This document shows positions 1,652 to 37,371 of a stretch of DNA of 37,371 bases, piece after piece (positions within the stretch are counted from its first letter, which is position 1; every line of letters starts with the position of its first letter). Under the pieces are notes generated by a model. It saw only the letters and a list, made by a program, of their open reading frames with translations. It had not been told where the DNA came from and did not search any database. The DNA is from a virus (Duplodnaviria; Heunggongvirae; Uroviricota; Caudoviricetes). The position numbers and the translations under genes are program-made. The stretch lies in the IMG/VR virus record IMGVR_UViG_2579779116_000018, positions 1-37,371 of that record, one strand, 5' to 3'.

Positions 1652-3331
1652 ATGAAAACTAAGTTGTATTCATATATCCGCTTCTCGTCTATGAAGCAAG
1701 CGGATGGTAGTTCTTATGAACGCCAGAAGAGAACAGCGAAAGAGATAGCCGCAAAATATGATCTTGAGCTAGTTACAAGCTATCAGGATTTTGGTGTATC
1801 TGCATTCAAAGGGGCTAACAGTAGAACAGGTGCACTATCTCGCTTTCTGGATGAGATTGGTCGATCTGTTCCGGTTGGTAGCTGGCTGGTTGTGGAAAAC
1901 TTGGACCGTATCTCTCGCCAATCCATCATTGAAGCACAAGAGCTATTTCTCTCGATCATACGTAGGGGAATAACCATTGTCACTGGTATGGATGGGAAAG
2001 TGTATAGCCGCGAATCGGTTAATGCTAATCCCATCGATTTACTATTGAGTGTCATGTTGTTTGCGAGAGCTAACGAGGAAAGCCAGACTAAGCGCAATCG
2101 TACTAACTCAAGCGCACTGATTAAGATTAAGTCGCATCAAGAAAATCCCCAGAATCCGGCAGTGGCAATCGAGGAAGTTGGGAAGAATATGTGGTGGACG
2201 GATACCACTTCCGGTTATGTGTTGCCTCATCCTACATACTTCCCTGTTGTTCAGGAGATTGTGGAATTACGGAAGAATGGACGTTCAACCGCCGAAATAC
2301 TGGATCACCTTAACGAGACATATGCACCACCACCAGCAGTAAGCAACAAGAAGCATTCAAAATGGTCACGGGCAATGGTTGAAAGGTTGTTTCATACCCG
2401 CGCTTTGATTGGTATCAAGGAGGTCTCTGTCGATGGTGTTAACTATGAGTTAAAGGATTATTACCCTCGTGTTATTGATGATGCTACGTTCTATCACCTT
2501 AAGAAAAATATTGGTGCTAGAGCATGGAACTTTGGAGACAAGGAAGAAGTTAAACCGATCCCCCTGCTTAGTGGTATTGGCCTATTGAAATGTGATCATT
2601 GCGGTTGCGCTATGGTTAAAGTGAAGGGAACGAACAAACGTTCTGACCAGTATCGTTATACATGTGATGCGACCCGTTCACGTAGACTTGATTGCGAGCA
2701 TCCAAACTGGAGTTTTCGAGGTGATCAATTAGAGAAAGCTGTATTGCAATTGCTGGCTGATAAAATCTGGATTGCTGAGGACAAGGCTAATCCGGTTCCG
2801 GCGTTGAAAGTACAGGTTGATGAAATATCACGCAAGATTGATAACCTGATTGCCCTTTCTGCTATGACAGGAGCAACGAAGGAGCTAGCCGATCAGATTA
2901 CTACCCTCAATAGCGAGCGTGAAACACTCTACAATCAGATCAAGATGGCAGAAGAGGAAATGTATTCTGTTGACTCTCAAGGCTGGGAGAAGCTCGCAGA
3001 ATTTGATTTAGAAGATGTTTACAACGAGGAACGACTAAAGGTCCGGTTTAAGATTAAGCAAGCTCTAAAGCGGATCGGGTGTAGCAGGATTGACAGAAAC
3101 AAAAACTTGTTTGTACTGGAATACATCGATGGAAAGACCCAGAGAGTTGTAATAGAAAATTCAAGAGGAACGAGGAAAGGACAAATCTTTGTCGATTTGA
3201 AAACTATCAATGATAGGCAGATTCTGGAGAGTAACGGGCTTGTTCTGCATCCATGTTTAGACATGCTGACAGATAAGAACTGGAAACCAGAAGAGGAAAT
3301 ACCAGGTCCATTACAGGAATTTGGAATTTAA
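1652..3331 (+). CDS. large serine recombinase (559 aa)
   Basis: N-terminal resolvase-type catalytic domain (YSYIRFSSMKQ with candidate nucleophilic Ser), recombinase domain, Cys-rich zinc ribbon CDHCGC...YTCDATRSRRLDCEH, and C-terminal coiled coil: the typical large serine recombinase architecture. Confidence 0.9.
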   Translation: MKTKLYSYIRFSSMKQADGSSYERQKRTAKEIAAKYDLELVTSYQDFGVSAFKGANSRTGALSRFLDEIGRSVPVGSWLVVENLDRISRQSIIEAQELFLSIIRRGITIVTGMDGKVYSRESVNANPIDLLLSVMLFARANEESQTKRNRTNSSALIKIKSHQENPQNPAVAIEEVGKNMWWTDTTSGYVLPHPTYFPVVQEIVELRKNGRSTAEILDHLNETYAPPPAVSNKKHSKWSRAMVERLFHTRALIGIKEVSVDGVNYELKDYYPRVIDDATFYHLKKNIGARAWNFGDKEEVKPIPLLSGIGLLKCDHCGCAMVKVKGTNKRSDQYRYTCDATRSRRLDCEHPNWSFRGDQLEKAVLQLLADKIWIAEDKANPVPALKVQVDEISRKIDNLIALSAMTGATKELADQITTLNSERETLYNQIKMAEEEMYSVDSQGWEKLAEFDLEDVYNEERLKVRFKIKQALKRIGCSRIDRNKNLFVLEYIDGKTQRVVIENSRGTRKGQIFVDLKTINDRQILESNGLVLHPCLDMLTDKNWKPEEEIPGPLQEFGI

Positions 3332-3404: not shown

Positions 3405-4580
3405 TTAGAGAGCGTTTAAGAGAGTATTAAAGTATTCATCCATTAAATCAGGATTGTTGTCATCAATACAGAAAAATTCCGGTTTATTGATGCCGTAGAA
3501 GTGAGTATGTAGCTTGAATGTATCGTCATCAAATACATCTTTCGGAGATACCCACATATTAGCCTCGTCCGGTTGATTGGTTAGGTAGTCATAAACCAGT
3601 TGCTGTAAGTGCGGCAACTCATCAATAGTCAGAGTTTCCGACCATCCATCCTTGAAATCTTTGTAGGGTGCTGCATGAGTCTTGAAGCGTTGTTTTACTT
3701 CATGCTCTAAATCGGCAGCTTTCCAACCATCCTCAAACTCATGAGTAAAGATTAAGCGGTGAGTGAAGTTGCTCTTTCTGGTTTGTTCTCTCATTCGTTC
3801 TTCTGGTTTTCGGGTAGTGATTCCAAATTTAATAAATTTGTCATCTAATAATTGAATGTAGAAACTAGCCTTACCCTGATAAGTCCGGTTAGACAGTTGC
3901 ACCAGTTGGTCTTTAATGCAAAGCGGACAAGTGAAAGAATCAGCACATCTTAAATGAGATTCCCATTCGTGGTTATGTGACTTGCAATAGGTTTTAAATT
4001 TAACATCCTTTAGGTGTGGGGTGTTTATGGTAAATCCTTTGAAGATGTAAGGTGTAGTCTCGCAACGTGCATTGATGATTGTCTCTTTGTCCTTAATAAC
4101 TTCATCAAAAGTCTTGCCACTTCTTACCCGTTGGGATTTTTCAGCCATACAGATTTTACAATCAAAATCAAAATCATCCTTGAGAGCATGTAATAGAGAT
4201 GGCGTCATGATTTGATTGTGTATAGGACACAAAACACGGGCTTTTGTCTTGTTGCGCCCTTTCCATTCTCCTTGCCATCCTAGAAACTTCTTTCCCTTCT
4301 CATTACAACGAGATTCCATTTTCAACCATACAGCCTTTTCAGTCTGGAATAACTCACCCCCGTTAGTATCTTCCAGTTTGCGTAATTTGTAGTCCTTATA
4401 TTCTTGTGTATCTAAATTGTAGATTCGAAAGTAAGTGTGATTACCCTTCCACGGTAGGATAAATCCACCAAATACGAAAGCAGGTTCCAGTTTAGCGATG
4501 ATTCGTTGTTGGTACTCTTCCGGCGATAAACCGCGAGTTTTCTTAACAAAAGGAATTTCGGCAGCGTAAGCAAGTTTCAT
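3405..4580 (-). CDS. Zn-ribbon-repeat / T5orf172 domain protein, paralog B (391 aa)
   Basis: Start moved from ORF-track 4691 to the internal ATG at 4578-4580, which has RBS AGAGGAAACTACT upstream and gives an N-terminus (MKLAYAAEIPFVKKTRGLSPEEY) matching the paralogs. WKG/C...CP.C repeats and C-terminal FYIQL...KFGITTRKPEERMREQ. Confidence 0.75.
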   Translation of the reverse strand: MKLAYAAEIPFVKKTRGLSPEEYQQRIIAKLEPAFVFGGFILPWKGNHTYFRIYNLDTQEYKDYKLRKLEDTNGGELFQTEKAVWLKMESRCNEKGKKFLGWQGEWKGRNKTKARVLCPIHNQIMTPSLLHALKDDFDFDCKICMAEKSQRVRSGKTFDEVIKDKETIINARCETTPYIFKGFTINTPHLKDVKFKTYCKSHNHEWESHLRCADSFTCPLCIKDQLVQLSNRTYQGKASFYIQLLDDKFIKFGITTRKPEERMREQTRKSNFTHRLIFTHEFEDGWKAADLEHEVKQRFKTHAAPYKDFKDGWSETLTIDELPHLQQLVYDYLTNQPDEANMWVSPKDVFDDDTFKLHTHFYGINKPEFFCIDDNNPDLMDEYFNTLLNAL

Positions 4581-4639
4581 AGTAGTTTCCTCTAAAATAA
4601 TAAGTTCACTACTATTTATTAGAGAAAATTGTCTTACTA

Positions 4640-4667
4640 TTGCATTCTCTATCTGAATGTGTATAAT
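4640..4667 (+). promoter_or_regulatory. putative sigma70 promoter for the 4735 gene
   Basis: TTGCAT (4640-4645), 16 bp spacer, TATAAT (4662-4667), in the divergent intergenic region 4581-4734. Confidence 0.4.
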
Positions 4668-4734
4668 ACGCGACCCTAAATCCCAAACCAACCATATTGA
4701 GGTTATGCCTATAAGTTAAAAAAGTGAGGTCTAT

Positions 4735-5304
4735 ATGATTCCAGTAATGGCTAAAGATATTGTTTTTACTCCTAAATCCTCCCGTGCTGTAACTCCATCG
4801 GCATTAGAACAACGCATTCTGACTCACATCAAAGATAAGGACTTACCATTAGTCTTTCATGGCTTTCTGGGTGAGTTTAAAGGGCTTCATTCAAGAATTG
4901 CTCTAACATGTACCCGATGCGGTAATAGAGCCGACAAATCAGCTACTAACCTGCTTAATGAAGGTAAACGATGTGTTTGCTTCAATAGTGACTACTTTCA
5001 ATATAAAGCGGGTGTGCCTTATCTCTATGTAATGAAGTCTGGGGATATTGGTAAATTTGGTGTTACAAAGTCAATCATCAAGCGACGTGTTAATCTGGGT
5101 GTACGCAATCCCGGTCATAACTTTGATATTGTCTTTGCTGGTGAAATGCCATCAATGAAACATGCTTTAGCCACTGAAAGAGCAATAAAGAGATTACTGG
5201 ATGTGGGTATAGGCGGGATTGAATACGGCAAAACTGAAACATTCCACTACTGCAATAAATCACTAAACAATATAAAGAATATTGCAAGTGTGGAGTGGAA
5301 CTAA
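4735..5304 (+). CDS. Zn-ribbon / T5orf172 domain protein, paralog C (189 aa)
   Basis: RBS GTGAGGT before ATG; one GEFKG...C..C...RCVC repeat and C-terminal PYLYV...GKFGVTKSIIKRR T5orf172-like segment. Confidence 0.75.
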   Translation: MIPVMAKDIVFTPKSSRAVTPSALEQRILTHIKDKDLPLVFHGFLGEFKGLHSRIALTCTRCGNRADKSATNLLNEGKRCVCFNSDYFQYKAGVPYLYVMKSGDIGKFGVTKSIIKRRVNLGVRNPGHNFDIVFAGEMPSMKHALATERAIKRLLDVGIGGIEYGKTETFHYCNKSLNNIKNIASVEWN

Positions 5305-6796: not shown

Positions 6797-6827
6797 AAAA
6801 AGCGCCCACTAGAGGCGCTTTAATTTT
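6797..6827. terminator. bidirectional intrinsic terminator
   Basis: AGCGCC-cactaga-GGCGCT hairpin flanked by A-run on one side and T-run on the other, between convergent helicase and M15 peptidase genes. Confidence 0.65.
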
Positions 6828-7179
6828 ATCCATTCCATCGTGATTTTTTCGATCTGGAATCGATATGCGTAAAGGTTTTATATTTGCCTAAGCCGTATTG
6901 AGTAGGATATTTCCCATCAAGATAAGCATGGACAATATCAGGGGAGACACCCTTGATCACAATGTCAGCCGCACGGCCTCGAACGTGATAGCTGTTGGTT
7001 GCACCGCCTACATTCTTGTTATGAGTTGGGCAACGGTTCCCACTGTTAATAATTACTGGTTTCCCGAAGTGTTCGCGTACATCCTCAAGAATTACCAGTA
7101 ATTCAGCGTCGATTGTATCATAATCACATTTTCCACATTTACATTTAAATTCCTTGCGAGAAAAATGTTTGCTTAACAT
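6826..7179 (-). CDS. peptidase M15-family zinc peptidase, candidate endolysin (117 aa)
   Basis: N-terminal LSKHFSRKEF and SGNRCPTHNKNVGGATNSYHVRGRAADI ... THID match the M15 (VanY / L-Ala-D-Glu peptidase-like) metal-binding signature; strong RBS TAAGGGGGT; last gene of the late operon. Confidence 0.7.
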   Translation of the reverse strand: MLSKHFSRKEFKCKCGKCDYDTIDAELLVILEDVREHFGKPVIINSGNRCPTHNKNVGGATNSYHVRGRAADIVIKGVSPDIVHAYLDGKYPTQYGLGKYKTFTHIDSRSKKSRWNG

Positions 7180-7188
7180 ATTACCCCC

Positions 7189-7536
7189 TTAGATCATTTC
7201 GAAGATATAACCAATAAAGCGCATACCCTTGATATAATAAGGAGCAGTGCCTACACACACCGCGCGTGCATCACCCAGACAGTTAAAGCTATAAGGATTA
7301 ACTACATCGACTTCTTGCCCGACACGAAAACGATACTTAGGACGTTTAGCCAATGTAGCGACACAAAACACGGTCCCTTTTTCATGATCGCGGATACATT
7401 CTTTATATTGTTTATGTTTAACTCTCTTCGCCTCAAAATCATAGGTCATTGATTCTGGGCTAATGCCATTAATAAAAATACCGGAAAGCTGATCGACCGG
7501 ATAAGTAGGAAATTCAGTGAAAATATTTTTAGCCAT
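7189..7536 (-). CDS. hypothetical protein (115 aa)
   Basis: RBS TGGGGGTATAAC before ATG; tightly packed in the late operon; no motif recognised. Confidence 0.6.
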   Translation of the reverse strand: MAKNIFTEFPTYPVDQLSGIFINGISPESMTYDFEAKRVKHKQYKECIRDHEKGTVFCVATLAKRPKYRFRVGQEVDVVNPYSFNCLGDARAVCVGTAPYYIKGMRFIGYIFEMI

Positions 7537-7574
7537 GTTATACCCCCATAAGATTCTATGAGGGTATTTATGGA

Positions 7575-8258
7575 TTAAACGTATTTCATGCGCGATTTAA
7601 TGTGCTTATTAATGTTCTTAAGCATCATTTCCTCGTTGCTTTCCCACGATCCTAGCGTCGAATAACGAGTAGAAATTTTATCCGATTTAACGGCAACAAT
7701 TCGCTTACTCTGTTTCTGGATGCGTTTCTCTAAGCGACGTTTTGCCACCGCCGATCCATTCCTAGCGCGTTTGGTTCGGGATTTCTTAGGCTTGTACTTC
7801 TTCATGATAAAAGTCCCTTCCTTGTTCTCTACCTTGATGAAGTTGCCGTTTTCGATGTTACGCATCATCTTACCGCCTTTGATGGCCTTAATGTTCCCGT
7901 GGGAGTCTAAGACCTTACCGTTGGCGATTGGAACTAGCTTATTGATTTTGCCCCCATCGAAATAGTGTTTCAGATAGTCGTCCTGACTGCCGATCTTCTT
8001 GTCCTTATCCCTTGCGCCCTTGATGAAGATTTGGTGTCTGGTCCCTGATCGGTTCTTGTAGTTGGTATTACCTACAGCTTGCTGAGTCCAGCGAGTAGGT
8101 CTATCAACATTCTTGTTAATCTTCTTCTGGAGTGCTCTGGAAGCAAAGATCGCCCCTTCCCCTAGTGCCCTTTCGAATGTATCGGTTGCCTTTTCAGACC
8201 ATTGCCGTAACGCTTTCTTAGTCCTTAGAGCGTTTCGTTTATTGGTACTGGTTGCCAT
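7575..8258 (-). CDS. hypothetical basic protein (227 aa)
   Basis: RBS AGGGGGCTAAC before ATG; Lys/Arg-rich; function unknown. Confidence 0.6.
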   Translation of the reverse strand: MATSTNKRNALRTKKALRQWSEKATDTFERALGEGAIFASRALQKKINKNVDRPTRWTQQAVGNTNYKNRSGTRHQIFIKGARDKDKKIGSQDDYLKHYFDGGKINKLVPIANGKVLDSHGNIKAIKGGKMMRNIENGNFIKVENKEGTFIMKKYKPKKSRTKRARNGSAVAKRRLEKRIQKQSKRIVAVKSDKISTRYSTLGSWESNEEMMLKNINKHIKSRMKYV

Positions 8259-8259
8259 G

Positions 8260-8430
8260 TTAGCCCCCTAATAACGAAAAGACCCCCGCCAGTGTCCTTA
8301 GCAATTGTTCATCCACGGTCATAGCCGGGAGTTCAAGCCCAAAGGACGTTAGCAGAGGTCTAATTGCTACGTTATAAGTGAGGGCGATAATCAAGAGATA
8401 ACCAAAATATTTCTTAAGTTTATTCTTCAT
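8260..8430 (-). CDS. small membrane protein (56 aa), possible lysis accessory
   Basis: Hand-found ORF MKNKLKKYFGYLLIIALTYNVAI... with RBS AAAGGGGTGAAT; one hydrophobic helix; no Cys, so not a lipoprotein o-spanin. Confidence 0.4.
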   Translation of the reverse strand: MKNKLKKYFGYLLIIALTYNVAIRPLLTSFGLELPAMTVDEQLLRTLAGVFSLLGG

Positions 8431-8448
8431 ATATTCACCCCTTTATTA

Positions 8449-8727
8449 TTATTTTTGTCTGAGTAAATCGATAACTTGGTCAAATTTAGCGTCCATAGCA
8501 ACCACTTTCTTTTCTATACCGTGAAGGGTTTGTTCCATGCGATAAACTCTCTCGGCGATCTGGTCATGGTTACTTTGCATTGTTTCAAACTTCTGATTAA
8601 ACAATGCATCATTGGACTCTAATTTCGACAATCTATTTTCAGTTGCTAATTGATTTCGGTGAAGTCTCCATAATCCACCGCAAATTAAGGCGATAACACC
8701 GATACCGCCATATATAATTTCAGTCAT
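8449..8727 (-). CDS. membrane protein with N-terminal TM helix and coiled coil (92 aa), possible holin or i-spanin-like
   Basis: MTEIIYGGIGVIALICGGLW TM segment followed by a charged helical region; RBS GGGGGCGTA; follows the terminator after the tip gene. Confidence 0.5.
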   Translation of the reverse strand: MTEIIYGGIGVIALICGGLWRLHRNQLATENRLSKLESNDALFNQKFETMQSNHDQIAERVYRMEQTLHGIEKKVVAMDAKFDQVIDLLRQK

Positions 8728-8767: not shown

Positions 8768-8813
8768 TTTAGATAAAAATAATCCCGCCTAACTCAAAAG
8801 AATTAAGCGGGAT
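8768..8813 (-). terminator. intrinsic terminator downstream of the tail tip gene
   Basis: On the minus strand, AATCCCGC...GCGGGATT stem (8 bp, 18 nt loop) followed by ATTATTTTTATCT. Confidence 0.55.
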
Positions 8814-8833
8814 TAATTATTAAAATTAAATTT

Positions 8834-11800
8834 TTAAGAAACAGTAATACCGGTAGTGGCTTTTTTAGTTACCATTACAGTTAAATCACTGATCCATGTG
8901 CTAGGCGTCCAGTTGTTGATTGCGCTTGATTGCACTTCAAAGGTCAAGGTCACAGCACCTTTACCCGCTGGCATATCAATAACACCTGAGTAAAGACCAG
9001 TATTACCGCCATACGCCCTATTATACAACTCTGACCCATTCTTACGAACAATAAGGCGACAGGTGTCGTAATAGGTATTATTGTTCGACCCTTCACGCGC
9101 TCGCAATCCACCAAAACTAATTGCCGGAATAACGATTTGACGATCGAACTTGTGATCATCTTCAACGCGAACAGTGACCGTACCCTGTGGATAACCAGCA
9201 TAACCAGTATCAACGTTAACATCACGATGCGGGAACTTACGTCCAATCACCTTAACGAAATCACCCTTAACCTGAGTAGCTTCGAGCATACCCTTAATAA
9301 CACAGCTAGAGTTAATCGTGACGTTGTTCAGAGTACCAGAATCAGCAGTGATATTACCTTTAACGGTTGCATTCATGAACGTAGCGGACCCGTTCTTGTT
9401 GATATGCCATCCGGTCGATCCGTTCCAGTTGGAAGACTGGATATAGTTACCGATTTTAGCGTTATCAATTGCACCGTTTACGATCTTCGCGTTAGTGATT
9501 GCCCCGTCCTGAATCTTCGCGCTGTTAATTGCAGCATTGCCGATTTTAGCCGTGGTAATCGCCGCATCATTAATCTGGGCTGTACCAATTGCAGCATTAC
9601 GAATCATCGCATTATCGAGATAAACCTTGTTACCTTCGATACCAAACGGGCATACTTCCGATCCGTTCTGTGGAGCTACCGCGATTTTATCAGCATTAAA
9701 GATGATTCTCGTCGGTTGCGCCGGATCGTTGGTTGCGCTCATGTGAATACCAGCCACGCGACCATCTGCATTAACTGCCAGATTGTATTTGCTGTTAATG
9801 GTTCCTTTCAAAGCATCGATTTTTACATCTGCTTCCTGATTCACACCAGCAATCTTGCCATCCATTTCTACCCGAACTTGATCAATCTTACTTGCGCTTG
9901 CTGCCTCACTGGTAGCAATAGCTTGTTTCAGGGTAGTAGCAGATGCGCTAACTTCTTTGGTGATATCGCCTTTCAGTTCAGCTTTAACCTGATCAATCTT
10001 AGTTGCACTGGCTTGATCACCAGAGACAATAAGACTCTTTAAGGTATCGGCTGAGGCTTGCACCGTCTGCCCTGTTTCGGTAGTGATTTGCTTATGCATT
10101 GCATCAATTTTAGCATCGGCATTAGCGCCAGCTTGAGCAATAGCATCCGCGATAGTTTCATCTAAGCGGTCTTGTAAACCAATCAGGTCTTCCAGTGCTT
10201 CTTTGTCCTGATCGTCCCAGCTAATGGTAGATTTCATTTGCATGAAATACGGTTCAGACCAAACAGCATCATCCATACCGAAAATATCGTAGTGAGCACC
10301 ACGGATATAATAATCACCGTCTGCCAAATCAAAGGAAGTATGGCTAACACTATTCGTGCTTACCGCCCTTGCATCGGAGAAAGTGTTATCGGTTGCATAC
10401 TGGATGATTGACCCTGCATAGTCATGTTCTACGTCATCCGCCCAGCTAACAAACGCAGTATTAAAGCCACCACGCGCACTAAAACCTTTCATTGGCTTAT
10501 GTTGTGGGTTGATAGCCACTAAACGCGCTGGGGCGCTCTCTGAGTTGTTATAGCCCTTAGCCGATACTTCTACCGTCAGTTGACGCGAAAGGCCGTTAAA
10601 CTGGTTCATATCAAGCGTATAAGTCCATGATTCAGGATCGCGGGTACGGTACTGAATAGACTTACCAGCCTTGTTAGTCACCTTGATAATGTATGCTTCA
10701 AACAGGTCACTAAACTTGTTAGTTTCACCGTTGATCTCAACATCTAAGCCTTGCTGGTTTTCCCATTCGATAATCAGATCATTACCTTCGAAAGTTCCTG
10801 GCGTGCTACCCTGATTTTTGATTCGAATAACCGGAGTCGGCAATTCATAGGTAACAGTCGGATTCTGGTTAATCAGTTCTACCCAATCGGATCGAGCGAT
10901 GATACCGAAAGCACAAACTCGGTAATCATAAGAGCGATCTTTAGCCAGTGCGTTGACACTGAAAATTTGCTGTGAAGTCTGTCCCAGCTTAATCCAGTTA
11001 GGCGATCCACTTACACGGTAATCAATCTGGAAACCGTAGCGGTTAAAATCTTCCGGTGCGTCCCATGTCAAAGTTACGTTTTTACCGTGGATTGTCTCAC
11101 CAGTTGCCTTAATTCTGAAATTAGTCGGTTTCTGTACTGTCATTGAATCCGGTAAACCGCTTGGTCGGTTGTCTGGGTTAGCCGCATAGTTCAGGTCAGT
11201 ATAAACCTGAGAATTATATTCTGTGGCAGTGATAGTCATCATCCCAGCAATACCAGAATCAATCGAGCGATCAATTGCAGTAATACGCCATAAGGAATTA
11301 TTCAGCTTCAATTCATCATAGGTTACGCTGATAACGTCCCAAACTTCGGCAGTGAATGCGTCAGTAGTCATAAAGCTGATAACCTGAGTGATACGAGATT
11401 TATTTCGTTCAATGCTCGCAAGTTTATCAATCTGGTCTTTAGACTTAACAAAACGATATTCAATATCTTTAGCGATAATTCGACCATCTTGACGAATAGT
11501 AGCATCGTTTTCAGCATCAGCCGGATAACGTAGCATTTGCTCTGAATAGTCGATTGATGGTTCTTGATACATCGCGTTAATGGTATTGAAATAACCGTTA
11601 GTGCCACCTGTTTTCAGTGATACCTTACCCATCATGATATTGTCTTCATTGAAGGTATGCTTAACAATATCAGGAGCATCCAGTTTCAGGGTAATACGTC
11701 CAAAGGATTCGAACATCACCCCGCCGAAAGTCTGCATAAGGCTAGTCAAGTTCTCTTTAAAGCTGGCGTTCGGATCACATGCACCGTTTGAATGTAGGTC

Positions 11801-12610
11801 CATCTGGCGTACTTGTTTACGTACTTTCAGGAATGAATCAACGTTAATGTTTTCAATTGGTACGGATAAGCCATATTTTTCATTTGTTAGGTAGTGGAAA
11901 ATCTGATCCACGCCGTTAGTGCTAGCCTCAATAGCATTGGTTTCAAGGTTACGGATTTTTAAGCCCATAACATCAACCGCTACTTGGCTATTAGGCTGGA
12001 GAATATCAACACCAGCAGCAAGAGATTTATCATCACGACGTAACACAATACACATGGTTGCAATACCATTGCCTTTGTAGTTGTCGTTCCAGTCTGATCC
12101 TAAATGACGTTTTGCCAGTGACAAAGCGGTGTTAGGATTCTTACCCGTGCGAAACTCAACTTCTAAAACTTTCCGGTATTCTTCTTTAATGTTGCCTTTG
12201 TCCAGTACACCATCACGGATCGTCATGTTCTTACCAACAAGAACATTTTTGTTATCGATAAACAGTGCTTTGTAATGGTCGATTTCACCCTCGGCAATAG
12301 CGAAGATTTGCACTAACTTATTGTTTTCTTGCTTGGAAATTGCTTTGTAAACGCAGATTGCACCTGTGCGGGTAGTACCGAAAAGAACGGGTAATACTGT
12401 CTTAGGATCGTTTGATGTTCCTAGTGTCACCGCATTATCTGGGCTTTGTACTTTCGGTGTTTTCGGTGCGCCTACAGTGGAAGCGATCAAGGTCATTGCA
12501 CCAGCAGCCATACCGATAGCGACTGCGGTCATAACAGAAAATGTTGCAGCAGCAGCCATCCCAGCAGACGCACCAGCAATAACCGCGCCTACCAATACTT
12601 CAAATCCCAT
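8834..12610 (-). CDS. tail tip / central fibre protein: gpI C-terminal-like N-terminus fused to gpJ-like host specificity protein (1258 aa)
   Basis: N-terminal Gly/Ala-rich hydrophobic region then PKTPKVQSPDN...LPVLFG resembles the C-terminal half of lambda gpI; central FN3-like repeats; AxI-type beta-helix repeats (NAAIGTAQINDAAITTAKIGNAAINSAKI); C-terminal about 150 aa (SGTLNNVTI..SC.IKG...DDHKFDRQIVIP...VIDMPAGKG) resemble the lambda J receptor-binding end. Start ATG overlaps upstream stop (TAATG). Confidence 0.85.
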   Translation of the reverse strand: MGFEVLVGAVIAGASAGMAAAATFSVMTAVAIGMAAGAMTLIASTVGAPKTPKVQSPDNAVTLGTSNDPKTVLPVLFGTTRTGAICVYKAISKQENNKLVQIFAIAEGEIDHYKALFIDNKNVLVGKNMTIRDGVLDKGNIKEEYRKVLEVEFRTGKNPNTALSLAKRHLGSDWNDNYKGNGIATMCIVLRRDDKSLAAGVDILQPNSQVAVDVMGLKIRNLETNAIEASTNGVDQIFHYLTNEKYGLSVPIENINVDSFLKVRKQVRQMDLHSNGACDPNASFKENLTSLMQTFGGVMFESFGRITLKLDAPDIVKHTFNEDNIMMGKVSLKTGGTNGYFNTINAMYQEPSIDYSEQMLRYPADAENDATIRQDGRIIAKDIEYRFVKSKDQIDKLASIERNKSRITQVISFMTTDAFTAEVWDVISVTYDELKLNNSLWRITAIDRSIDSGIAGMMTITATEYNSQVYTDLNYAANPDNRPSGLPDSMTVQKPTNFRIKATGETIHGKNVTLTWDAPEDFNRYGFQIDYRVSGSPNWIKLGQTSQQIFSVNALAKDRSYDYRVCAFGIIARSDWVELINQNPTVTYELPTPVIRIKNQGSTPGTFEGNDLIIEWENQQGLDVEINGETNKFSDLFEAYIIKVTNKAGKSIQYRTRDPESWTYTLDMNQFNGLSRQLTVEVSAKGYNNSESAPARLVAINPQHKPMKGFSARGGFNTAFVSWADDVEHDYAGSIIQYATDNTFSDARAVSTNSVSHTSFDLADGDYYIRGAHYDIFGMDDAVWSEPYFMQMKSTISWDDQDKEALEDLIGLQDRLDETIADAIAQAGANADAKIDAMHKQITTETGQTVQASADTLKSLIVSGDQASATKIDQVKAELKGDITKEVSASATTLKQAIATSEAASASKIDQVRVEMDGKIAGVNQEADVKIDALKGTINSKYNLAVNADGRVAGIHMSATNDPAQPTRIIFNADKIAVAPQNGSEVCPFGIEGNKVYLDNAMIRNAAIGTAQINDAAITTAKIGNAAINSAKIQDGAITNAKIVNGAIDNAKIGNYIQSSNWNGSTGWHINKNGSATFMNATVKGNITADSGTLNNVTINSSCVIKGMLEATQVKGDFVKVIGRKFPHRDVNVDTGYAGYPQGTVTVRVEDDHKFDRQIVIPAISFGGLRAREGSNNNTYYDTCRLIVRKNGSELYNRAYGGNTGLYSGVIDMPAGKGAVTLTFEVQSSAINNWTPSTWISDLTVMVTKKATTGITVS

Positions 12611-13075: not shown

Positions 13076-13846
13076 TTATTTCTTGAAGTCTTCGTACATT
13101 CTACGAAGGTTGTATTTTGGATGGCCTAAGCTAACCATGATTTGACTCAATTTAACCGCGCCGGGTTTACCGTTTTCAATCCACACGCGCCGGATTTCAT
13201 CGTAATGCTGCCAACAGCCTTGACCTTTAGCAATACGTATAGAATGTGTATATTTCTTGGTAGAGCTTTCTGGTCGCTTGCGCCCTAGATGTGCTTTTCT
13301 AATCTTTTCGCGTGTTTCTTCTGATACAGGTTTACCATAACGGGGGTTATTCTCTCCACGAGTAGCAGCCGATAATTTAGCTAATATTTCTGGGTTTGTT
13401 ACTTTTTTGCCTCTCATTGCACTAGGTTTACCATAGCGATGGTTCTTTTCACCCATTCGAGATGCCGACATTTTAGCTCTAGATTCCGGTGTATGTTTTC
13501 TTCCGTAAAAAGGATGATTTTCACCACCATCAAAACCACCGACACCACCAGGAGCTATATTAAGACATACACCACGCCCCCATTTTTCGCGTGCTGCCTC
13601 CACTAACAGGATTTCACATTCAAACGCTTCCTCGGCAGTATCAAACAATTTTGAACGAACAACTTCAAATTCATATATCGGGGTTTCTGATTCTTTATTT
13701 TTACGCTTCATCATTTTAATAACTTTACCCGATCCCACATATCCATCGTCTAGATTTGTGGTTGTTCTTTTTCCGACGTAATGATAGATTTTACCAGAGC
13801 GATTAGATTTAATAGTGGTGTGATAAACGTAATGGAATTTTTGCAT
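13076..13846 (-). CDS. GIY-YIG homing endonuclease with NUMOD3-type repeats (256 aa)
   Basis: N-terminal HYVYHTT...SGKIYHYVGK...GYVGSG (GIY-YIG module) and three copies of N-x-P-x-Y-G-K/R-x-x-S/T-x-E-T/S-R-x-K-I/M (NUMOD3-like DNA-binding repeats); own RBS; inserted between minor tail genes. Confidence 0.85.
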   Translation of the reverse strand: MQKFHYVYHTTIKSNRSGKIYHYVGKRTTTNLDDGYVGSGKVIKMMKRKNKESETPIYEFEVVRSKLFDTAEEAFECEILLVEAAREKWGRGVCLNIAPGGVGGFDGGENHPFYGRKHTPESRAKMSASRMGEKNHRYGKPSAMRGKKVTNPEILAKLSAATRGENNPRYGKPVSEETREKIRKAHLGRKRPESSTKKYTHSIRIAKGQGCWQHYDEIRRVWIENGKPGAVKLSQIMVSLGHPKYNLRRMYEDFKK

Positions 13847-18280: not shown

Positions 18281-18787
18281 TTAAGAGATTTTCAAAGTCT
18301 GCTTAGTGCCAGTCTTCTTAATGTTATTGAGGAAAGCAGCCGGAGGATTGCTTAACCAATAGTAATGAAAACCGCTTTGCATACTGTTATAAGGAACAGT
18401 GACAGCAGCACCACCCAAATTAACGGTTATATTCCCCGCTCTACCGTTCTGGAGATATACAGCCATAGTAGGAGTACCGCCATTGAATTGACCAACGATA
18501 ACGCCAACCAGATGGCCTACGCCCACGTTTTCGGGGTTCTCCATAGATCCTTTACCGCGCATGTCAGTTACTGGATAGTTTGAAGCAGTTACACCCCAGT
18601 TATTACCCAATGAAGTAGACCATGCAGCAGTAGCAACAACCGTATCCATACCACGACCAGCCATTGCCGACATATTACGCGGAGCCGGAACTTTTAAAGC
18701 TGTTAATGCTTCTTTCATCCATCGCTTACCCGTCACTGATACAGCCGATGACCCGATCCAGCCGGGAACTTTAACGACATTTGCCAT
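18281..18787 (-). CDS. hypothetical structural protein (168 aa)
   Basis: Gly-rich protein between the tail tube candidate and the chaperones; RBS GGAG; function unknown. Confidence 0.55.
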   Translation of the reverse strand: MANVVKVPGWIGSSAVSVTGKRWMKEALTALKVPAPRNMSAMAGRGMDTVVATAAWSTSLGNNWGVTASNYPVTDMRGKGSMENPENVGVGHLVGVIVGQFNGGTPTMAVYLQNGRAGNITVNLGGAAVTVPYNSMQSGFHYYWLSNPPAAFLNNIKKTGTKQTLKIS

Positions 18788-18802
18788 TTTGATTACTCCA
18801 AT

Positions 18803-18829
18803 AAAAAAGCCCCACCATTAAGGCAGGGC
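18803..18829 (-). terminator. intrinsic terminator (copy 1 of an identical pair)
   Basis: Minus-strand RNA GCCCUGCC-uuaa-GGUGGGGC (two G-U pairs) followed by UUUUUU; the same 27 nt recurs at 24578-24604. Confidence 0.7.
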
Positions 18830-18946
18830 TTATAATTAATCTTTAGCCTTGCGGCTTCGTTTAGCTGTGGCTTTCGCCGTAACAACCTCAATTTCAGGAA
18901 TCACCGTAGGTTCATCTTGAATTGGCTGGGGTTGTTCTTCGAAAGT

Positions 18947-19423
18947 TCAACCACCAGCGGTAAACACTTCCTGTTTGATCGGAGCACCATCAACAGCAAA
19001 GGTATATTCTTTAGTTACGACTTCTTCATCGCCACCCTGCATAGCCGCTTTAGAGATAAAGCCGTTGAAAGCGGTGCGAATACCAGTCTGCTTACCAGCA
19101 TCAACATAATATTCAATCTTAATCTGAATACGCGTGCCATCTTCGGCTGCCTTATCCAGTTTAGCGTGTACCGCATCACCTGGGATGTAGTTAACGGTCA
19201 GAGTCAGATCAGGAACGTTCAGTTTCCCTACCAGTTTACGGTTATACTGAGAAGAGAAGGATTTAACTTCTACAGTACCGCGTTCGATAGCAGTTTCAGG
19301 GAAGCCAGCGCACTCTTTAATTTCTTCGTAACCGGAGTGATCGAGAGTGGTATTAGTGGTATCCGCGTGATAGAACAGACTTACCAGACCACCAGTAAAA
19401 ATATCTTTAAATTGCTGAGACAT
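18947..19423 (-). CDS. putative major tail tube protein (158 aa)
   Basis: Size and position upstream of G/T chaperones; strong RBS AAGGGGTAATT; followed by the same terminator module as the capsid gene, consistent with a highly expressed major structural protein. Family not confirmed. Confidence 0.6.
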   Translation of the reverse strand: MSQQFKDIFTGGLVSLFYHADTTNTTLDHSGYEEIKECAGFPETAIERGTVEVKSFSSQYNRKLVGKLNVPDLTLTVNYIPGDAVHAKLDKAAEDGTRIQIKIEYYVDAGKQTGIRTAFNGFISKAAMQGGDEEVVTKEYTFAVDGAPIKQEVFTAGG

Positions 19424-19452
19424 AGAATTACCCCTTAATTAAATTGTTATTA

Positions 19453-19471
19453 CGGGGGAACTAGTCCCCCG
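19453..19471. other. GC-rich intergenic hairpin CGGGGGA-actag-TCCCCCG
   Basis: Perfect 7 bp stem between the fibre stop and the tail tube start; a similar hairpin occurs at 36743-36761. Confidence 0.4.
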
Positions 19472-19478
19472 ACTTTTA

Positions 19479-22928: not shown

Positions 22929-22944
22929 CTAGAATCACCTCACT

Positions 22945-22977
22945 ATAAAACAGGAATAAGGGAGGCGTTAACCTCCC
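22945..22977 (-). terminator. terminator-like hairpin upstream of the fibre gene
   Basis: Minus-strand GGGAGG-uuaacg-CCUCCC followed by UUAUUCCUGUUUUAU. Confidence 0.45.
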
Positions 22978-23007
22978 AACGTTCATGTTTTATTTAGGTA
23001 AGCAATC

Positions 23008-33525: not shown

Positions 33526-33725
33526 AGTGGTATCCTCTAAAAGAAAGTGAATCAAACAAAGTACACTAGTATTTATAACGAGAATTTTTTATCTATTTGG
33601 AAGTGATTAGATTCAGTCGGCTTCGCCTCCTTCATAGATTTTGATTAAATCATCATCAAAACGAAGAAGTATCTTTAGAATATAAGAATCTTTCTTTTGG
33701 AGAAATTATAATCAGGAAGCAATTT

Positions 33726-34057
33726 AGCAACCGAAGGTTGCAATCCCGAAGGGATACCAATACCTTTCATGATCATTAAAGTGATCTAGAATCATCTAGT
33801 AACCAGTTAACTACTATTATCTTCAAAGTGATTATTACTATCTTTCTAGAATCAGTTAGTAACTAGTTTAAAATCCCTTTCAAGAAAATCCTTTCAGAAG
33901 TGATTCTCGATGCCACGCAGTGGCGTCGCAGACGTTTGAGAGTGAGCGAAGCGAGCGAGCAAACTAGTTAATTCCTTCTAAGACCATCTAGTATCATCTA
34001 GTTTAAATTAGTGTTACTAGAAGTAATTGGTTAGCGCTTCGCGCAGTCGGGCTACGC
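33726..34057. repeat. three pairs of short tandem hairpins interleaved with CTAG-rich AT-rich repeats
   Basis: Pairs at 33726-33753 (GCAACCgaaGGTTGC + ATCCCgaaGGGAT), 33911-33934 (GCCACgcaGTGGC + CGTCgcaGACG), 34032-34057 (GCGCttcGCGC + GGGCtacGCCC), separated by repeats such as TCTAGAATCATCTAGTAACCAGTT. Confidence 0.4.
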
Positions 34058-34203
34058 CCTCCTAATATCTTTTTGGTTATTTGTTGTTTTTGGTTTTACA
34101 CATGAGCGTAGCGAATGTGTTATATAATATCTATGCACGCCCGATCCCCGCTTTTGCCCCTCACTAAGTTAATGTTTTATAAAGAGTTTTTCTTACCAAT
34201 CCT

Positions 34204-36431: not shown

Positions 36432-36716
36432 TTATTTAGTCTGTTTGAAAACAAACGTTAAAAATTCGATTAAGCAATATACCCAGCATACAGTAAGCAG
36501 TAGATGCATAGAAATAGCCGGATGGAAGTTAAAAAGTGTCATACTAACTAGACCAACAATATAAGAAATCCCTTCGACAATTAAAGCTAGACTAGAAAAT
36601 GCAACAAACGCACCTAAGAATAATTCAGCACGTTCTCGATTTTCGGTTCCGAGTTTATAAGCAGAAATAACAGCCAGAATAGTAATGATGACAGCATAGG
36701 TAATAAAAGTAGCCAT
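36432..36716 (-). CDS. small integral membrane protein (94 aa)
   Basis: RBS AGAGGATATAAAACT; three predicted hydrophobic helices; function unknown, holin-like size. Confidence 0.55.
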   Translation of the reverse strand: MATFITYAVIITILAVISAYKLGTENRERAELFLGAFVAFSSLALIVEGISYIVGLVSMTLFNFHPAISMHLLLTVCWVYCLIEFLTFVFKQTK

Positions 36717-36810: not shown

Positions 36811-37371
36811 TTAAGACACATCAAATTCATCGTCTTCTTCTGGTTCTTGTTCTTGTTCTTCCGGTTCATCCATTAATGGTAATTCTTCTTCCTCGTCTTC
36901 TCCCAAATCTGCATTTTCGAACAAGTCCCCTACTTCATTTAAACGACGCTCGATAATCTCCCTTAGCTTATTCTTTAATGTTTTCTGGTCAGTGGCAGAT
37001 TCGAGAATTTCTAAAGCGTCGATTGTGGCGATCTGCAAAATAGTCTGCTTCACTTTCCCGCAGTATTCCGCTAGTTCCTGTTCTACATACCCGACCGGAA
37101 TCAGGAGATTCATAGCTTCCTGGTTCTCTCGTTCGGCTGCATCCGCTAATGCTCTTTCCCGGCGCAACTTCTCAACATCTATTTGTTCTTTTATAGAAGT
37201 TTCTTTGAGCGGATTAATGATGTTCTTCAAGACCCATTCTGTCCCTTCTTTGGCTGGTACGCGTCGTGTATTGGTATTAAATGGCATTCCTCGTTCTTGC
37301 CATTTCTTAGCGGCGTTAATTGTATAGCCGTATAAGCGGGAAATTTCTGTAAGGGTTAATTCTTCTTTCAT
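36811..37371 (-). CDS. Nu1-like DNA-binding protein, candidate terminase small subunit (at least 186 aa)
   Basis: N-terminal LTLTEISRLYGYTINAAKKWQERGMPF resembles the lambda Nu1 winged-helix segment (IRTIQNWQEQGMPV); acidic C-terminus. The ATG coincides with the last 3 nt of the window, so the true 5' end is not verifiable. Confidence 0.6.
   Translation of the reverse strand: MKEELTLTEISRLYGYTINAAKKWQERGMPFNTNTRRVPAKEGTEWVLKNIINPLKETSIKEQIDVEKLRRERALADAAERENQEAMNLLIPVGYVEQELAEYCGKVKQTILQIATIDALEILESATDQKTLKNKLREIIERRLNEVGDLFENADLGEDEEEELPLMDEPEEQEQEPEEDDEFDVS

What the first reader, a model, noticed from the sequence alone, without database searches (positions are those of the whole stretch)
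6826..8727. Lysis-like cassette with an M15 peptidase but no recognisable canonical holin or lipoprotein spanin
After the tip gene terminator come a 92 aa TM plus coiled-coil protein, a 56 aa hydrophobic protein, two unassigned proteins (227 and 115 aa) and the M15 peptidase. No Cys-containing lipoprotein candidate for an o-spanin is present, and the 92 aa protein is short for an i-spanin. The lysis mechanism may be atypical, or the holin may be the 94 aa membrane protein at 36432-36716.
Basis: inference. Interest (0 to 1): 0.4.

Follow-up and report, generated by a model that had tools for sequence, protein, structure and literature searches.

The report
Spanin-less prophage late-operon end with endolysin
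The five genes after the tail-tip gene of this E. coli prophage are a mixed set rather than one lysis cassette: two small membrane proteins (one resembling the phage Mu "releasin"), two probable tail/neck parts and a soluble cell-wall peptidase, and the whole prophage has no gene for breaking the outer membrane.

Summary
On the minus strand, between a strong terminator after the tail-tip gene and a bidirectional terminator, lie five tightly packed genes: 92, 56, 227 and 115 aa, then an M15 peptidase. The window is a complete E. coli prophage inserted in ycdX, so the search for lysis genes elsewhere could be finished. No lipoprotein signal exists in any frame, so there is no spanin. The only other membrane protein is the 94-aa, three-helix protein after the small terminase.

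The peptidase is a soluble endolysin with an intact active-site motif. The 227-aa protein is homologous to the "minor tail protein" gp49 of roseophage R4C, which has a Neck1/tail-completion link. The 115-aa protein models confidently as a tail-tube-like fold. Both are probably virion parts, not lysis proteins.

The 92-aa protein is not an i-spanin. Its predicted topology is N-out/C-in, and its family shows profile similarity to DUF2730, the Mu gp25 releasin family. The 92- and 56-aa proteins follow the tip gene in every relative found, while the endolysin type and position change. The slot after the small terminase holds unrelated small membrane proteins.

Which protein makes the hole cannot be settled by computation. 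This is a modestly interesting, uncharacterised variant of known systems.

The parts
8834..12610 (-). Tail tip / central fibre protein (J-like, 1258 aa). This is context: the gene the cassette follows.
   Evidence: PF09327 Phage_Tail_Tip and PF12421 on identical copies; PHROG tail-fibre hits.
8780..8815 (-). Intrinsic terminator after the tip gene: a 16-bp stem followed by a T-run. It is probably an attenuator separating the tail genes from the distal late genes.
   Evidence: sequence read.
8449..8727 (-). p92: a bitopic inner-membrane protein. It has a 3-residue acidic N-tail, a Gly-rich TMD ending in W, a basic juxtamembrane stretch and a 70-aa coiled coil predicted to be cytoplasmic (N-out/C-in). 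It is DUF2730-like (Mu gp25 releasin-like) and is a candidate lysis protein (holin partner or holin).
   Evidence: Hydrophobic helix; flank charges -1/+3; heptad register. The family is conserved after J in all relatives. hhalign: A7-A8 74% and A8-DUF2730 91%, E 1e-6, with controls at 8% or below. The direct A7-DUF2730 comparison gives only 7.5%. gp25 topology is taken from PMC9239132.
8260..8430 (-). p56: a small membrane protein with a basic N-terminus, one TMD carrying a conserved Y-N...P motif, and an acidic/amphipathic 25-aa C-tail (N-in/C-out predicted). It is a candidate holin or holin subunit.
   Evidence: 19-aa KD 1.58, similar to the lambda S TMDs at 1.61; flank charges +4/-2. Homologs are always downstream of p92. 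dN/dS is 0.12-0.14. Weak phrog_2024 hits at 0.011 and 4e-4.
7575..8258 (-). p227: a very basic protein (pI 10.7) of the phrog_1924 'minor tail protein' family, related to the Neck1/tail-completion class. It is a probable virion neck/tail-completion protein. The E. coli form carries about 40 extra K/R-rich residues.
   Evidence: phrog_1924 is hit by 4 of 5 orthologs, best 2.8e-9. hhalign A5 against R4C gp49: 96%, E 4e-9. R4C gp49 hits phrog_1924 at 2e-48 and phrog_27 'tail completion or Neck1' at 3.6e-5. Alignments. The AF2 model is unusable, pLDDT 43.
7189..7536 (-). p115: a small beta-rich protein with a tail-tube-like predicted fold. It is a probable virion tail/neck component and a candidate tail terminator.
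   Evidence: AF2 pLDDT 88, pTM 0.81. The best Foldseek hits are weak but almost all are phage tail, hub, neck or tube proteins. The family is tiny: 8 representatives among 1.84 billion proteins. It always follows p227. In R4C the terminator gene also follows the tip genes (PMC10276861).
6826..7179 (-). M15 (PF08291) zinc peptidase: a soluble, cytoplasmic endolysin.
   Evidence: It is 60-64% identical to annotated endolysins of SP6-like podophages. The SxHxxGxAxD motif lies at 63-72 and a His at 105. The maximum 17-aa hydropathy is 0.9, so there is no signal peptide or SAR domain.
6799..6821 (.). Bidirectional intrinsic terminator closing the late operon and the convergent helicase gene.
36432..36716 (-). 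p94: a three-TMD small membrane protein directly downstream of the small terminase. It is the alternative holin candidate (class I-like topology) and occupies a positionally conserved slot whose sequence varies.
   Evidence: No Pfam, PHROG or phage-database match. In other family members the slot holds 56 aa + 57 aa, 76 aa, or 47-52 aa membrane proteins.
36811..37371 (-). Small terminase-like protein (context for the p94 slot).
   Evidence: phrog_57 at 6e-15.

Best explanation
The region is the distal end of the prophage's late (virion plus lysis) transcription unit and mixes two functions.

(1) The 117-aa M15 peptidase is a soluble endolysin that accumulates in the cytoplasm and needs a membrane lesion to reach the wall. 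This is shown by family, motif and the absence of an export signal.

(2) The 227-aa and 115-aa proteins are virion neck/tail-completion components, a Neck1-like protein and a tail-tube-fold protein that may be the terminator. They are encoded after the tip gene, as in the related roseophage R4C. This is inferred from homology, fold and synteny.

(3) The 92-aa and 56-aa proteins are a conserved pair of inner-membrane proteins with opposite topologies. The 92-aa protein is a distant DUF2730/Mu-gp25 (releasin)-like, membrane-tethered cytoplasmic coiled coil. Together they are the most likely agents that permeabilise the inner membrane for the endolysin, with the 56-aa protein as the hole-former and the 92-aa protein as its trigger or partner. 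This step is inferred only.

(4) The prophage has no spanin of either type. Outer-membrane rupture therefore either needs no dedicated protein or uses an unrecognised one.
For: Completeness. The window spans the whole element between the two halves of ycdX, and nothing plausible lies in the 365 bp outside it.

Endolysin.

No spanin.

p227. An ortholog hits phrog_1924 at 2.8e-9. hhalign to R4C gp49 gives 96% and E 4e-9. gp49 also hits Neck1 phrog_27.

p115. The model is confident, and the tops of both Foldseek lists are dominated by tail, hub, neck and tube proteins. The R4C terminator gp18 is encoded after megatron gp16 and fibre gp17 (PMC10276861).

p92 and p56. They are the only membrane proteins conserved across E. 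coli, Salmonella, Providencia, phage DCP80 and twelve IMG/VR relatives, always directly after J. In those relatives the endolysin is an M15 peptidase or a T4-type lysozyme, and is adjacent or kilobases away with no membrane gene of its own beside it. All these endolysins lack export signals, by direct reading of their N-termini.

p92 topology. The N-flank is acidic or neutral and the C-flank basic in every homolog. This matches Mu gp25, a 99-aa N-out/C-in protein with a 73-aa cytoplasmic domain (PMC9239132).

Profile links. A7-A8 74% with E 3e-5, and A8-DUF2730 91% with E 1e-6. Reversed, shuffled and lambda Rz controls give 8% or less.

Transcription. The five genes sit between two terminators and all have strong ribosome-binding sites.
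Against: No holin family HMM matches p92, p56 or p94.

The window's own p92 group does not match DUF2730 directly: 7.5%, which is control level. Only one family member reaches Pfam PF10805, at E<=1. The link is therefore transitive and could reflect convergence of TMD plus coiled-coil proteins.

The experimentally shown role of Mu gp25 is release of SAR endolysins, and the endolysin here has no SAR domain.

Because the p92/p56 pair travels with the tail tip gene rather than with the endolysin, a tail-related or exclusion function is not excluded.

p94 has the classical three-helix holin topology and sits in a late-looking operon with the small terminase.

The structural matches for p115 are weak (E >= 0.004, TM 0.4-0.57), and it shows no sequence similarity to the R4C, HK97 or lambda terminators.

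p227 shows no detectable similarity to HK97 gp10 or lambda Z.
Confidence: 0.5

Rival explanations
1. The holin is the 94-aa three-TMD protein after the small terminase, or its non-homologous counterparts in other family members. The p92/p56 pair would then do something else linked to the tail tip, such as superinfection exclusion at the inner membrane, help with DNA entry, or lysis timing.
For: p94 has a class I-like three-TMD topology. The slot directly downstream of terS always carries small membrane proteins of unrelated sequence and topology: 3 TMD; 1+2 TMD; 2 TMD; 1 TMD. That is the mosaic pattern typical of holin genes. Lysis genes interleaved with terminase genes occur in T7 (own knowledge). 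p92/p56 co-segregate with J, not with the endolysin.
Against: The slot is empty in the most distant complete relative examined: L113 has no TMD gene after terS. It is not seen in the DCP80 segment. Yet those phages also have soluble endolysins. p94 has no homolog in the phage collection and only a 6-residue C-tail, whereas holins usually have a charged cytoplasmic tail. A position next to the prophage end with variable content also fits a moron or exclusion gene.
Confidence: 0.3
2. All five genes form one novel lysis cassette, in which the extremely basic 227-aa protein and/or the 115-aa protein replace the spanin as outer-membrane disruptors.
For: The five genes are tightly packed in one terminator-bounded unit. 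p227 has 57 K+R in 227 residues, pI 10.7. A cationic OM-disrupting lysis protein is known from phiKT gp28 (bioRxiv 10.1101/515445). There is no spanin in the genome.
Against: p227 is homologous to a virion-type protein family. p115 has a tail-tube-like fold. In relatives L048-L051 the p227/p115 pair is followed directly by the tail chaperones and tape measure, not by an endolysin. Neither protein has a signal peptide or TMD to reach the envelope.
Confidence: 0.07
3. The 56-aa protein is a disruptin: a phiKT gp28-like cationic antimicrobial peptide that breaks the outer membrane in place of a spanin.
For: It has the same length (56 aa). It sits between a membrane protein and the endolysin in a spanin-less coliphage. 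It shares the N-terminal K-x-KKY-x-G motif with gp28.
Against: There is no BLAST alignment even at E<=100. Net charge is +3 against +7, maximal helical hydrophobic moment 0.41 against 0.68, and hydropathy is TMD-like at 1.58 against 1.24. Family conservation lies in the hydrophobic Y-N...P helix.
Confidence: 0.05
4. The M15 peptidase is a virion-associated wall-digesting enzyme used at entry, not the lysis endolysin.
For: It is encoded directly after probable virion genes in the late operon.
Against: It is a 117-aa single-domain enzyme, 60-64% identical to proteins annotated as endolysins in SP6-like podophages. In relatives it is replaced by T4-type soluble lysozymes at varying positions. No other wall hydrolase was identified among the prophage's genes.
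Confidence: 0.04

Closest known systems
Phage Mu gp25 'releasin' / Pfam DUF2730 (PF10805)
   Same: For p92: similar length (92 aa against 99). An acidic 3-4-residue N-tail. A Gly-rich TMD ending in W. A basic juxtamembrane stretch followed by TE.R...LE and a roughly 70-aa cytoplasmic helical domain. N-out/C-in topology, late expression and location near the endolysin. The distant branch of the p92 family matches a DUF2730 profile at 91%, E 1e-6, well above controls.
   Different: The window's own branch does not match DUF2730 directly, and Pfam does not call it. Among isolated phages, DUF2730 was reported only in transposable Mu-like phages (PMC9239132), and this element is not transposable. 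The shown activity of gp25 is release of SAR endolysins, and the endolysin here is soluble. The gene is upstream of the endolysin here, not downstream as in Mu.
Lambda-type holin / endolysin / Rz-Rz1 spanin cassette
   Same: A late-expressed cluster contains small membrane proteins and a soluble endolysin. p92 has the TMD plus coiled-coil outline of an i-spanin and weak hits to PHROG 739 'Rz-like spanin' (E 0.05 and 0.001).
   Different: There is no o-spanin or u-spanin anywhere. The flank charges of p92 predict the opposite orientation to an i-spanin. hhalign to lambda Rz gives 0.4% or less. Two probable virion genes separate the membrane proteins from the endolysin.
Spanin-less coliphage phiKT and its disruptin gp28
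   Same: A coliphage without spanins (about 15% of Gram-negative phages lack them; bioRxiv 10.1101/515445). A 56-aa protein with a basic N-terminus lies inside the lysis gene cluster.
   Different: p56 is a hydrophobic TMD-type protein with net charge +3 and no sequence similarity to gp28.
Roseophage vB_DshS-R4C (Cronusvirus): terminator gp18 and 'minor tail protein' gp49
   Same: The capsid protein is related, a protease/scaffold-capsid fusion at 33.6% identity, and the tail tip is of the same type. p227 is homologous to gp49. The terminator gene lies after the tip genes and is followed by a small protein with a TMD and a charged tail.
   Different: p115 has no detectable sequence similarity to gp18. 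gp49 is at the other end of the R4C genome and was not among the twelve structural proteins modelled in the virion ('gp49' occurs 0 times in the main text).
SP6/K1-5-like podophage M15 endolysins
   Same: 60-64% identity over the full length, with the same single-domain architecture.
   Different: They belong to unrelated podophages, which indicates modular exchange. Relatives of this prophage carry T4-type lysozymes instead.
Shewanella LambdaSo Lcc6
   Same: [quoted passage not shown] Its architecture is like that of p92.
   Different: Homology was not tested because the sequence was not at hand. Lcc6 works with a pinholin and a SAR endolysin, and LambdaSo has spanins.

Membership tests
Peptidase M15_3 (PF08291) phage endolysin | Pfam model hit above the gathering score | tested here: met
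   96.7 bits against a cutoff of 23.2, E 1.1e-27; PHROG 894 'endolysin' at 1.9e-45.
Peptidase M15_3 (PF08291) phage endolysin | Zinc-ligand/catalytic motif SxHxxGxAxD plus a downstream His | tested here: met
   SYHVRGRAAD at 63-72 and H105 in FTHID. The motif definition is from own knowledge of the VanY/M15 family.
Peptidase M15_3 (PF08291) phage endolysin | Peptidoglycan-degrading activity and a requirement for lysis | not testable with these tools
   Needs enzyme assays and genetics.
Two-component spanin (Rz/Rz1) | o-spanin: a small outer-membrane lipoprotein with a lipobox, embedded in, overlapping or near the i-spanin gene | tested here: not met
   No lipobox ORF in any frame of the whole prophage, under a standard pattern or a relaxed one (0 hits).
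Two-component spanin (Rz/Rz1) | i-spanin: a type II (N-in/C-out) membrane protein with a periplasmic coiled coil | tested here: not met
   p92 has a TMD plus coiled coil, but an acidic N-flank and a basic C-flank in all homologs. This predicts N-out/C-in by the positive-inside rule, which is an inference. hhalign to lambda Rz gives 0.4% or less.
Unimolecular spanin (T1 gp11 type) | N-terminal lipoprotein signal plus a C-terminal TMD | tested here: not met
   No lipoprotein signal anywhere in the window.
Disruptin (phiKT gp28) | A highly cationic amphipathic helical peptide without a TMD, or sequence similarity to gp28 | tested here: not met
   p56: net charge +3 against +7, hydrophobic moment 0.41 against 0.68, TMD-like hydropathy; no BLAST alignment.
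DUF2730 / Mu gp25 releasin | Pfam PF10805 match over the whole length | tested here: not met
   No hit for p92 at E<=1. Only one of 12 family members reaches E<=1.
DUF2730 / Mu gp25 releasin | Profile-profile similarity to DUF2730 proteins | tested here: inconclusive
   Distant branch A8 against a 4-sequence DUF2730 profile: 91%, E 1e-6. Window branch A7 against A8: 74%, E 3e-5. A7 against DUF2730 directly: 7.5%. Controls give 8% or less.
DUF2730 / Mu gp25 releasin | About 100 aa, an N-terminal TMD, N-out/C-in topology, a cytoplasmic C-domain, and a late gene near the endolysin | tested here: met
   definition from PMC9239132. Topology is predicted, not measured.
DUF2730 / Mu gp25 releasin | Promotes release of a SAR endolysin | not testable with these tools
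   The endolysin here has no SAR domain, so the defining activity may not apply.
Holin (functional class) | A small late protein with at least one TMD and a charged cytoplasmic C-tail, encoded near the endolysin | tested here: inconclusive
   p92 and p56 fit loosely, and p94 has three TMDs but only a 6-residue tail. No holin HMM matches any of them.
Holin (functional class) | Forms lethal membrane holes that release endolysin | not testable with these tools
   Needs inducible expression or complementation of lambda S-amber.
phrog_1924 'minor tail protein' / Neck1 (tail completion) class | Profile match to phrog_1924 or to a bona fide member | tested here: met
   Window protein E 7e-4; 4 of 5 orthologs match, best 2.8e-9. 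hhalign to R4C gp49 (itself phrog_1924 at 2e-48) gives 96%, E 4e-9.
phrog_1924 'minor tail protein' / Neck1 (tail completion) class | Similarity to classical Neck1 proteins (HK97 gp10, lambda Z) | tested here: not met
   hhalign gives about 0.1% for both. The only link is the phrog_27 hit of R4C gp49 at 3.6e-5.
phrog_1924 'minor tail protein' / Neck1 (tail completion) class | Presence in the virion | not testable with these tools
   Needs virion proteomics or cryo-EM.
Tail terminator (lambda gpU / SPP1 gp17 / R4C gp18 type) | Terminator/tail-tube-like fold | tested here: inconclusive
Tail terminator (lambda gpU / SPP1 gp17 / R4C gp18 type) | Sequence similarity to known terminators | tested here: not met
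   hhalign to lambda U, HK97 gp11 and R4C gp18 gives about 0.1% in each case. The family is known for very poor sequence conservation (PMC11784142 abstract).

The most novel reading that the evidence does not exclude
The conserved p92/p56 pair may be a new two-protein inner-membrane lysis device. It would consist of a DUF2730-like tethered cytoplasmic coiled coil and a 56-aa bitopic partner of opposite orientation. It would release a fully soluble (non-SAR) endolysin and, in a family with no spanin at all, might also account for envelope rupture. That would extend the Mu 'releasin' family beyond transposable phages and beyond SAR endolysins.
Probability: 0.2. Interest if true: 0.65.

Novelty: new variant of a known kind. 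Interest (0 to 1): 0.4.

Why it matters
The biological role of DUF2730 proteins paired with soluble endolysins is an open question stated by the authors of the Mu releasin work (PMC9239132). How spanin-less phages of enterobacteria break the outer membrane is known for only one case, phiKT.

This prophage family offers a genetically tractable E. coli system for both questions. It is found in about 1% of complete E. coli genomes, and also in Salmonella and Providencia. It has one soluble endolysin, three candidate membrane proteins and no spanin.

The work also corrects the annotation of two 'hypothetical' genes to probable neck/tail-completion parts. It shows that gene order alone (tip gene, then small membrane genes, then endolysin) can mislead calls of lysis cassettes.

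Tried and rejected
- Megablast of the cassette against phage genomes: no match.
- tblastn of the 92-, 227- and 94-aa proteins against phages: nothing useful.
- tblastn of a p56 homolog: only E>=5 noise in T5-like Klebsiella phages.
- Word-indexed homolog searches found only the same prophage family.
- AF2 of the 227-aa protein failed, pLDDT 43.
- A PDB sequence search with the p227 profile gave 0 hits.
- hhalign of p227 and p115 against lambda Z/U, HK97 gp10/gp11 and R4C gp18: all negative.
- Rfam found nothing in the window.
- Disruptin identity of p56 was rejected.
- i-spanin identity of p92 was rejected on topology and on the absence of any lipoprotein partner.
- A literature search found no described ycdX prophage.
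- I considered that the 105-aa lipoprotein of the Salmonella and Providencia relatives might be a spanin. It sits by the integrase on the opposite strand, lacks a TMD partner, and is absent from this window.
Full report
**What the window is.** The 227-aa protein is encoded, with identical sequence, on many E. coli contigs next to ycdY, ycdZ and csgG. The cassette DNA occurs at 95-99% identity in 55 of 5,426 complete E. coli genomes.

In strain 2017.18.04CC the element lies between the two halves of a split ycdX gene. A large serine recombinase sits at one end and a small-terminase-like gene at the other. The window matches that element end to end. The roughly 365 bp between the window's right end and ycdX hold no plausible gene.

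PHROG scans give the layout along the minus strand:
- small terminase, then the 94-aa membrane protein;
- a regulatory region with a Rha-type protein;
- large terminase, portal, and a 668-aa protease/scaffold-capsid fusion;
- two tube-protein paralogs flanking a T4-like long fibre and a gp38-like adhesin;
- chaperones, tape measure, Dit, hub, DUF6950 and the J-like tip protein;
- then the five genes in question.

**Checking the observation.** All coordinates and lengths are right, and the genes lie on the minus strand. A 16-bp-stem terminator follows the tip gene, and a bidirectional terminator follows the peptidase. The five genes are separated by 18, 1, 38 and 9 nt, and each has a GGGGG-type ribosome-binding site.

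The same five genes occur in the same order in Salmonella and Providencia prophages, at 35-84% protein identity. dN/dS is 0.12-0.19 where dS is measurable. They are real genes.

**The endolysin.** The 117-aa protein matches PF08291 far above threshold, and PHROG 894 'endolysin'. It is 60-64% identical to annotated endolysins of SP6-like podophages. It keeps the SxHxxGxAxD motif and the distal His, and has no hydrophobic N-terminus. It is a soluble enzyme and needs a membrane lesion to reach the wall.

**No spanin.** A lipobox scan of every ORF of 25 aa or more, in six frames and from every start codon, found nothing credible. A relaxed scan, which required only a [GAS]-Cys preceded by an uncharged hydrophobic stretch and a basic N-region, found zero candidates. 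That scan allows for the unusual lipoboxes listed by Kongari et al. (PMC6139136). The prophage joins the roughly 15% of Gram-negative phages reported to lack spanins (bioRxiv 10.1101/515445).

**The two 'unassigned' proteins are probably virion parts.** Four of five orthologs of the 227-aa protein hit phrog_1924 'minor tail protein', best E 2.8e-9. A 12-sequence family profile aligns with gp49 of roseophage vB_DshS-R4C at 96% probability and E 4e-9, through the conserved DRPTPFT...QADYL...GN core. R4C is a phage with a related capsid gene. Its gp49 is itself a phrog_1924 member (2e-48) and also hits phrog_27 'tail completion or Neck1 protein' (3.6e-5).

The 115-aa protein belongs to a tiny family, with 8 representatives in 1.84 billion proteins. 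It models with pLDDT 88 and pTM 0.81. Foldseek finds no significant match. However, the tops of both the PDB and the viral lists are almost entirely phage tail proteins with the tube fold: Mu gp44-type hubs, neck and terminator chains, tube and distal tail proteins.

In R4C the cryo-EM study assigns the tail terminator to gene 18. That gene lies after the megatron (gene 16) and the fibre (gene 17), that is, after the tip genes (PMC10276861; gene map). There is thus a precedent in this lineage for neck genes placed after the tip gene.

Direct profile comparisons with lambda Z/U, HK97 gp10/gp11 and R4C gp18 are all negative. The assignment of p115 therefore stays tentative.

**Comparative anatomy.** The first 26 kb of the GenBank record of Escherichia phage DCP80 is a siphophage related to this prophage; the rest is T4-like, so the record looks chimeric. 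There the tip gene is followed by:
- a 153-aa TMD plus coiled-coil protein;
- an endonuclease VII gene;
- a 57-aa hydrophobic protein;
- homologs of p227 and p115;
- a reverse-strand gene;
- a T4-type soluble lysozyme.

Twelve IMG/VR loci with p227 homologs at 27-30% identity have the same run: J, TMD-coiled-coil (91-101 aa), endonuclease VII-like, p56 homolog, p227 homolog, p115 homolog. What follows the run varies. It can be a T4-type lysozyme (L040), a 4-kb insert and then the lysozyme (L043), or the tail chaperones and tape measure (L048-L051).

In one nearly complete relative (L113 plus L051) the lysozyme sits alone on the other strand, next to Dit, with no membrane gene beside it. So the four upstream genes are linked to the tip gene, and the endolysin is an exchangeable module.

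**The 92-aa protein.** Every homolog has an acidic or neutral N-tail of a few residues, a Gly-rich TMD ending in Trp, a basic juxtamembrane stretch and a long heptad-repeat helix. By the positive-inside rule the coiled coil is cytoplasmic. That is the opposite of an i-spanin.

This is exactly the described architecture of Mu gp25, the 'releasin'. gp25 is a 99-aa N-out/C-in protein with four periplasmic residues and a 73-aa cytoplasmic domain, and its whole length defines DUF2730 (PMC9239132). In a joint alignment Mu gp25 falls in register, with the nearly invariant E-x-R-x4-E after the TMD.

Profile comparisons gave:
- distant branch of the family against a four-sequence DUF2730 profile: 91%, E 1e-6 over 70 columns;
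- window branch against the distant branch: 74%, E 3e-5;
- window branch against DUF2730 directly: only 7.5%.

Controls with reversed profiles (8% or less), 30 block-wise column shuffles (1.4% or less) and lambda Rz (0.4% or less) show that the two positive links are not simply TMD plus coiled-coil composition. Pfam itself does not call p92 as DUF2730. I therefore call p92 DUF2730-like, not a member.

**The 56-aa protein.** It has a basic N-terminus, one helix as hydrophobic as the lambda S helices, a conserved Y-N...P motif and an acidic, amphipathic C-tail. This predicts N-in/C-out, the opposite of p92 (homologs).

It shares its length and a K-x-KKY-x-G start with the phiKT disruptin gp28. 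But there is no alignable similarity, and its charge and amphipathicity are far from an antimicrobial-peptide profile. The disruptin reading is rejected.

**The 94-aa protein.** It has three TMDs and no database relatives. The position right after the small terminase always carries small membrane proteins, but of unrelated sequence:
- 56 aa (one TMD) plus 57 aa (two TMDs) in about half of the E. coli copies;
- a 76-aa two-TMD protein in L083;
- 47-52-aa one-TMD proteins in L085 and L086.

That pattern suits either holins or morons. The slot is empty in the distant relative L113.

**Synthesis.** The peptidase is soluble, so a hole-former must exist. The candidates are p56 and/or p92, or p94.

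In favour of p56/p92: they are universally conserved in a family whose members all use soluble endolysins, they lie in the same terminator-bounded unit as the endolysin, and p92 has a link to a known lysis-protein family. I put this at about 0.5.

In favour of p94: classical holin topology and the variable slot. I put this at about 0.3.

The remaining probability goes to readings in which p227 or p115 take part in lysis, or the peptidase is a virion enzyme. Nothing here can be decided without expression and knockout experiments.

**Verdict.** The region is an uncharacterised variant built from recognisable kinds of parts: an M15 endolysin, a releasin-like protein, a small holin-like protein and neck/tail-completion genes, in a spanin-less temperate siphophage of Enterobacterales. 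Interest is moderate.

Noticed in passing
window 1-37371; L011 (NZ_AP027850.1 3013809-3050660): The window is a complete prophage of about 36.9 kb inserted inside ycdX by a large serine recombinase (window 1652-3331). It is present in 55-64 of 5,426 complete E. coli genomes, and some copies sit at another site next to lprI/hicB. No CI-type repressor, replication initiator or DNA polymerase was recognised in it.
   Followed up: partly
window 33556-35206: This is a 1.65-kb ORF-poor, AT-rich stretch. It contains an iteron-like array of TTTCAGGGGCAAAA in eight or more copies at roughly 21-22-nt spacing (34204-34393). It also holds a second repeat set, TCTAGAATCATCTAGTA x4 (33785-34003). It may be a replication origin or a regulatory binding array. 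Rfam found nothing.
   Followed up: partly
window 36432-36716; L062 1774-2171; L083 2957-3187; L085 3500-3643: The gene slot directly after the small terminase always encodes small membrane proteins, but of unrelated sequence and helix number in different family members.
   Followed up: yes
window 13076-13846, 578-1624, 3405-4691, 4735-5304: There are several homing-endonuclease-like genes: a NUMOD3/HNH gene between the hub and DUF6950, and CapR/GIY-YIG-like genes around the helicase and integrase. They show presence/absence differences between otherwise near-identical prophage copies.
   Followed up: no
L048, L043, L051, L113 (IMG/VR relatives): In distant relatives the block DUF6950-J-p92-endoVII-p56-p227-p115 lies between the tube gene and the tail chaperones/tape measure. 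Dit and hub lie elsewhere, on the opposite strand in L043 next to a serine recombinase. The tail module has therefore been rearranged within this family.
   Followed up: partly
L016 22959-23426 and homologs in L040-L051: An endonuclease VII-like gene sits between the p92 and p56 homologs in DCP80 and in every IMG/VR relative examined. It is absent from the E. coli, Salmonella and Providencia prophages, where only 18 nt separate the two genes.
   Followed up: no
L016 (PQ671644.1, Escherichia phage DCP80): The 141-kb GenBank record looks chimeric. The first roughly 26 kb is a siphophage related to this prophage, and the rest carries T4-like genes (rIIA, motA, ndd).
   Followed up: partly
L013 17340-17657; L012 17230-17550: The Salmonella and Providencia relatives encode a 105-106-aa lipoprotein (MFKKMTIAAIVMVITGC...) next to the integrase, on the strand opposite to the late genes. 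It is absent from this window. It is probably a lysogenic-conversion or exclusion gene; a spanin role is not excluded for those relatives.
   Followed up: partly
window 18281-23841: A T4-like long tail fibre distal subunit (1149 aa, phrog_1699 at 7e-144) and a gp38-like adhesin (168 aa) are inserted between two tube-protein paralogs (277 aa and 158 aa) of a siphophage tail module.
   Followed up: no
L113 9668-9793: In a distant relative, a 41-aa ORF overlapping the start of the large terminase gene reads like a miniature of p92: a TMD followed by RHLEKRIGYIETRM. It may be a chance resemblance or a paralogous fragment.
   Followed up: no
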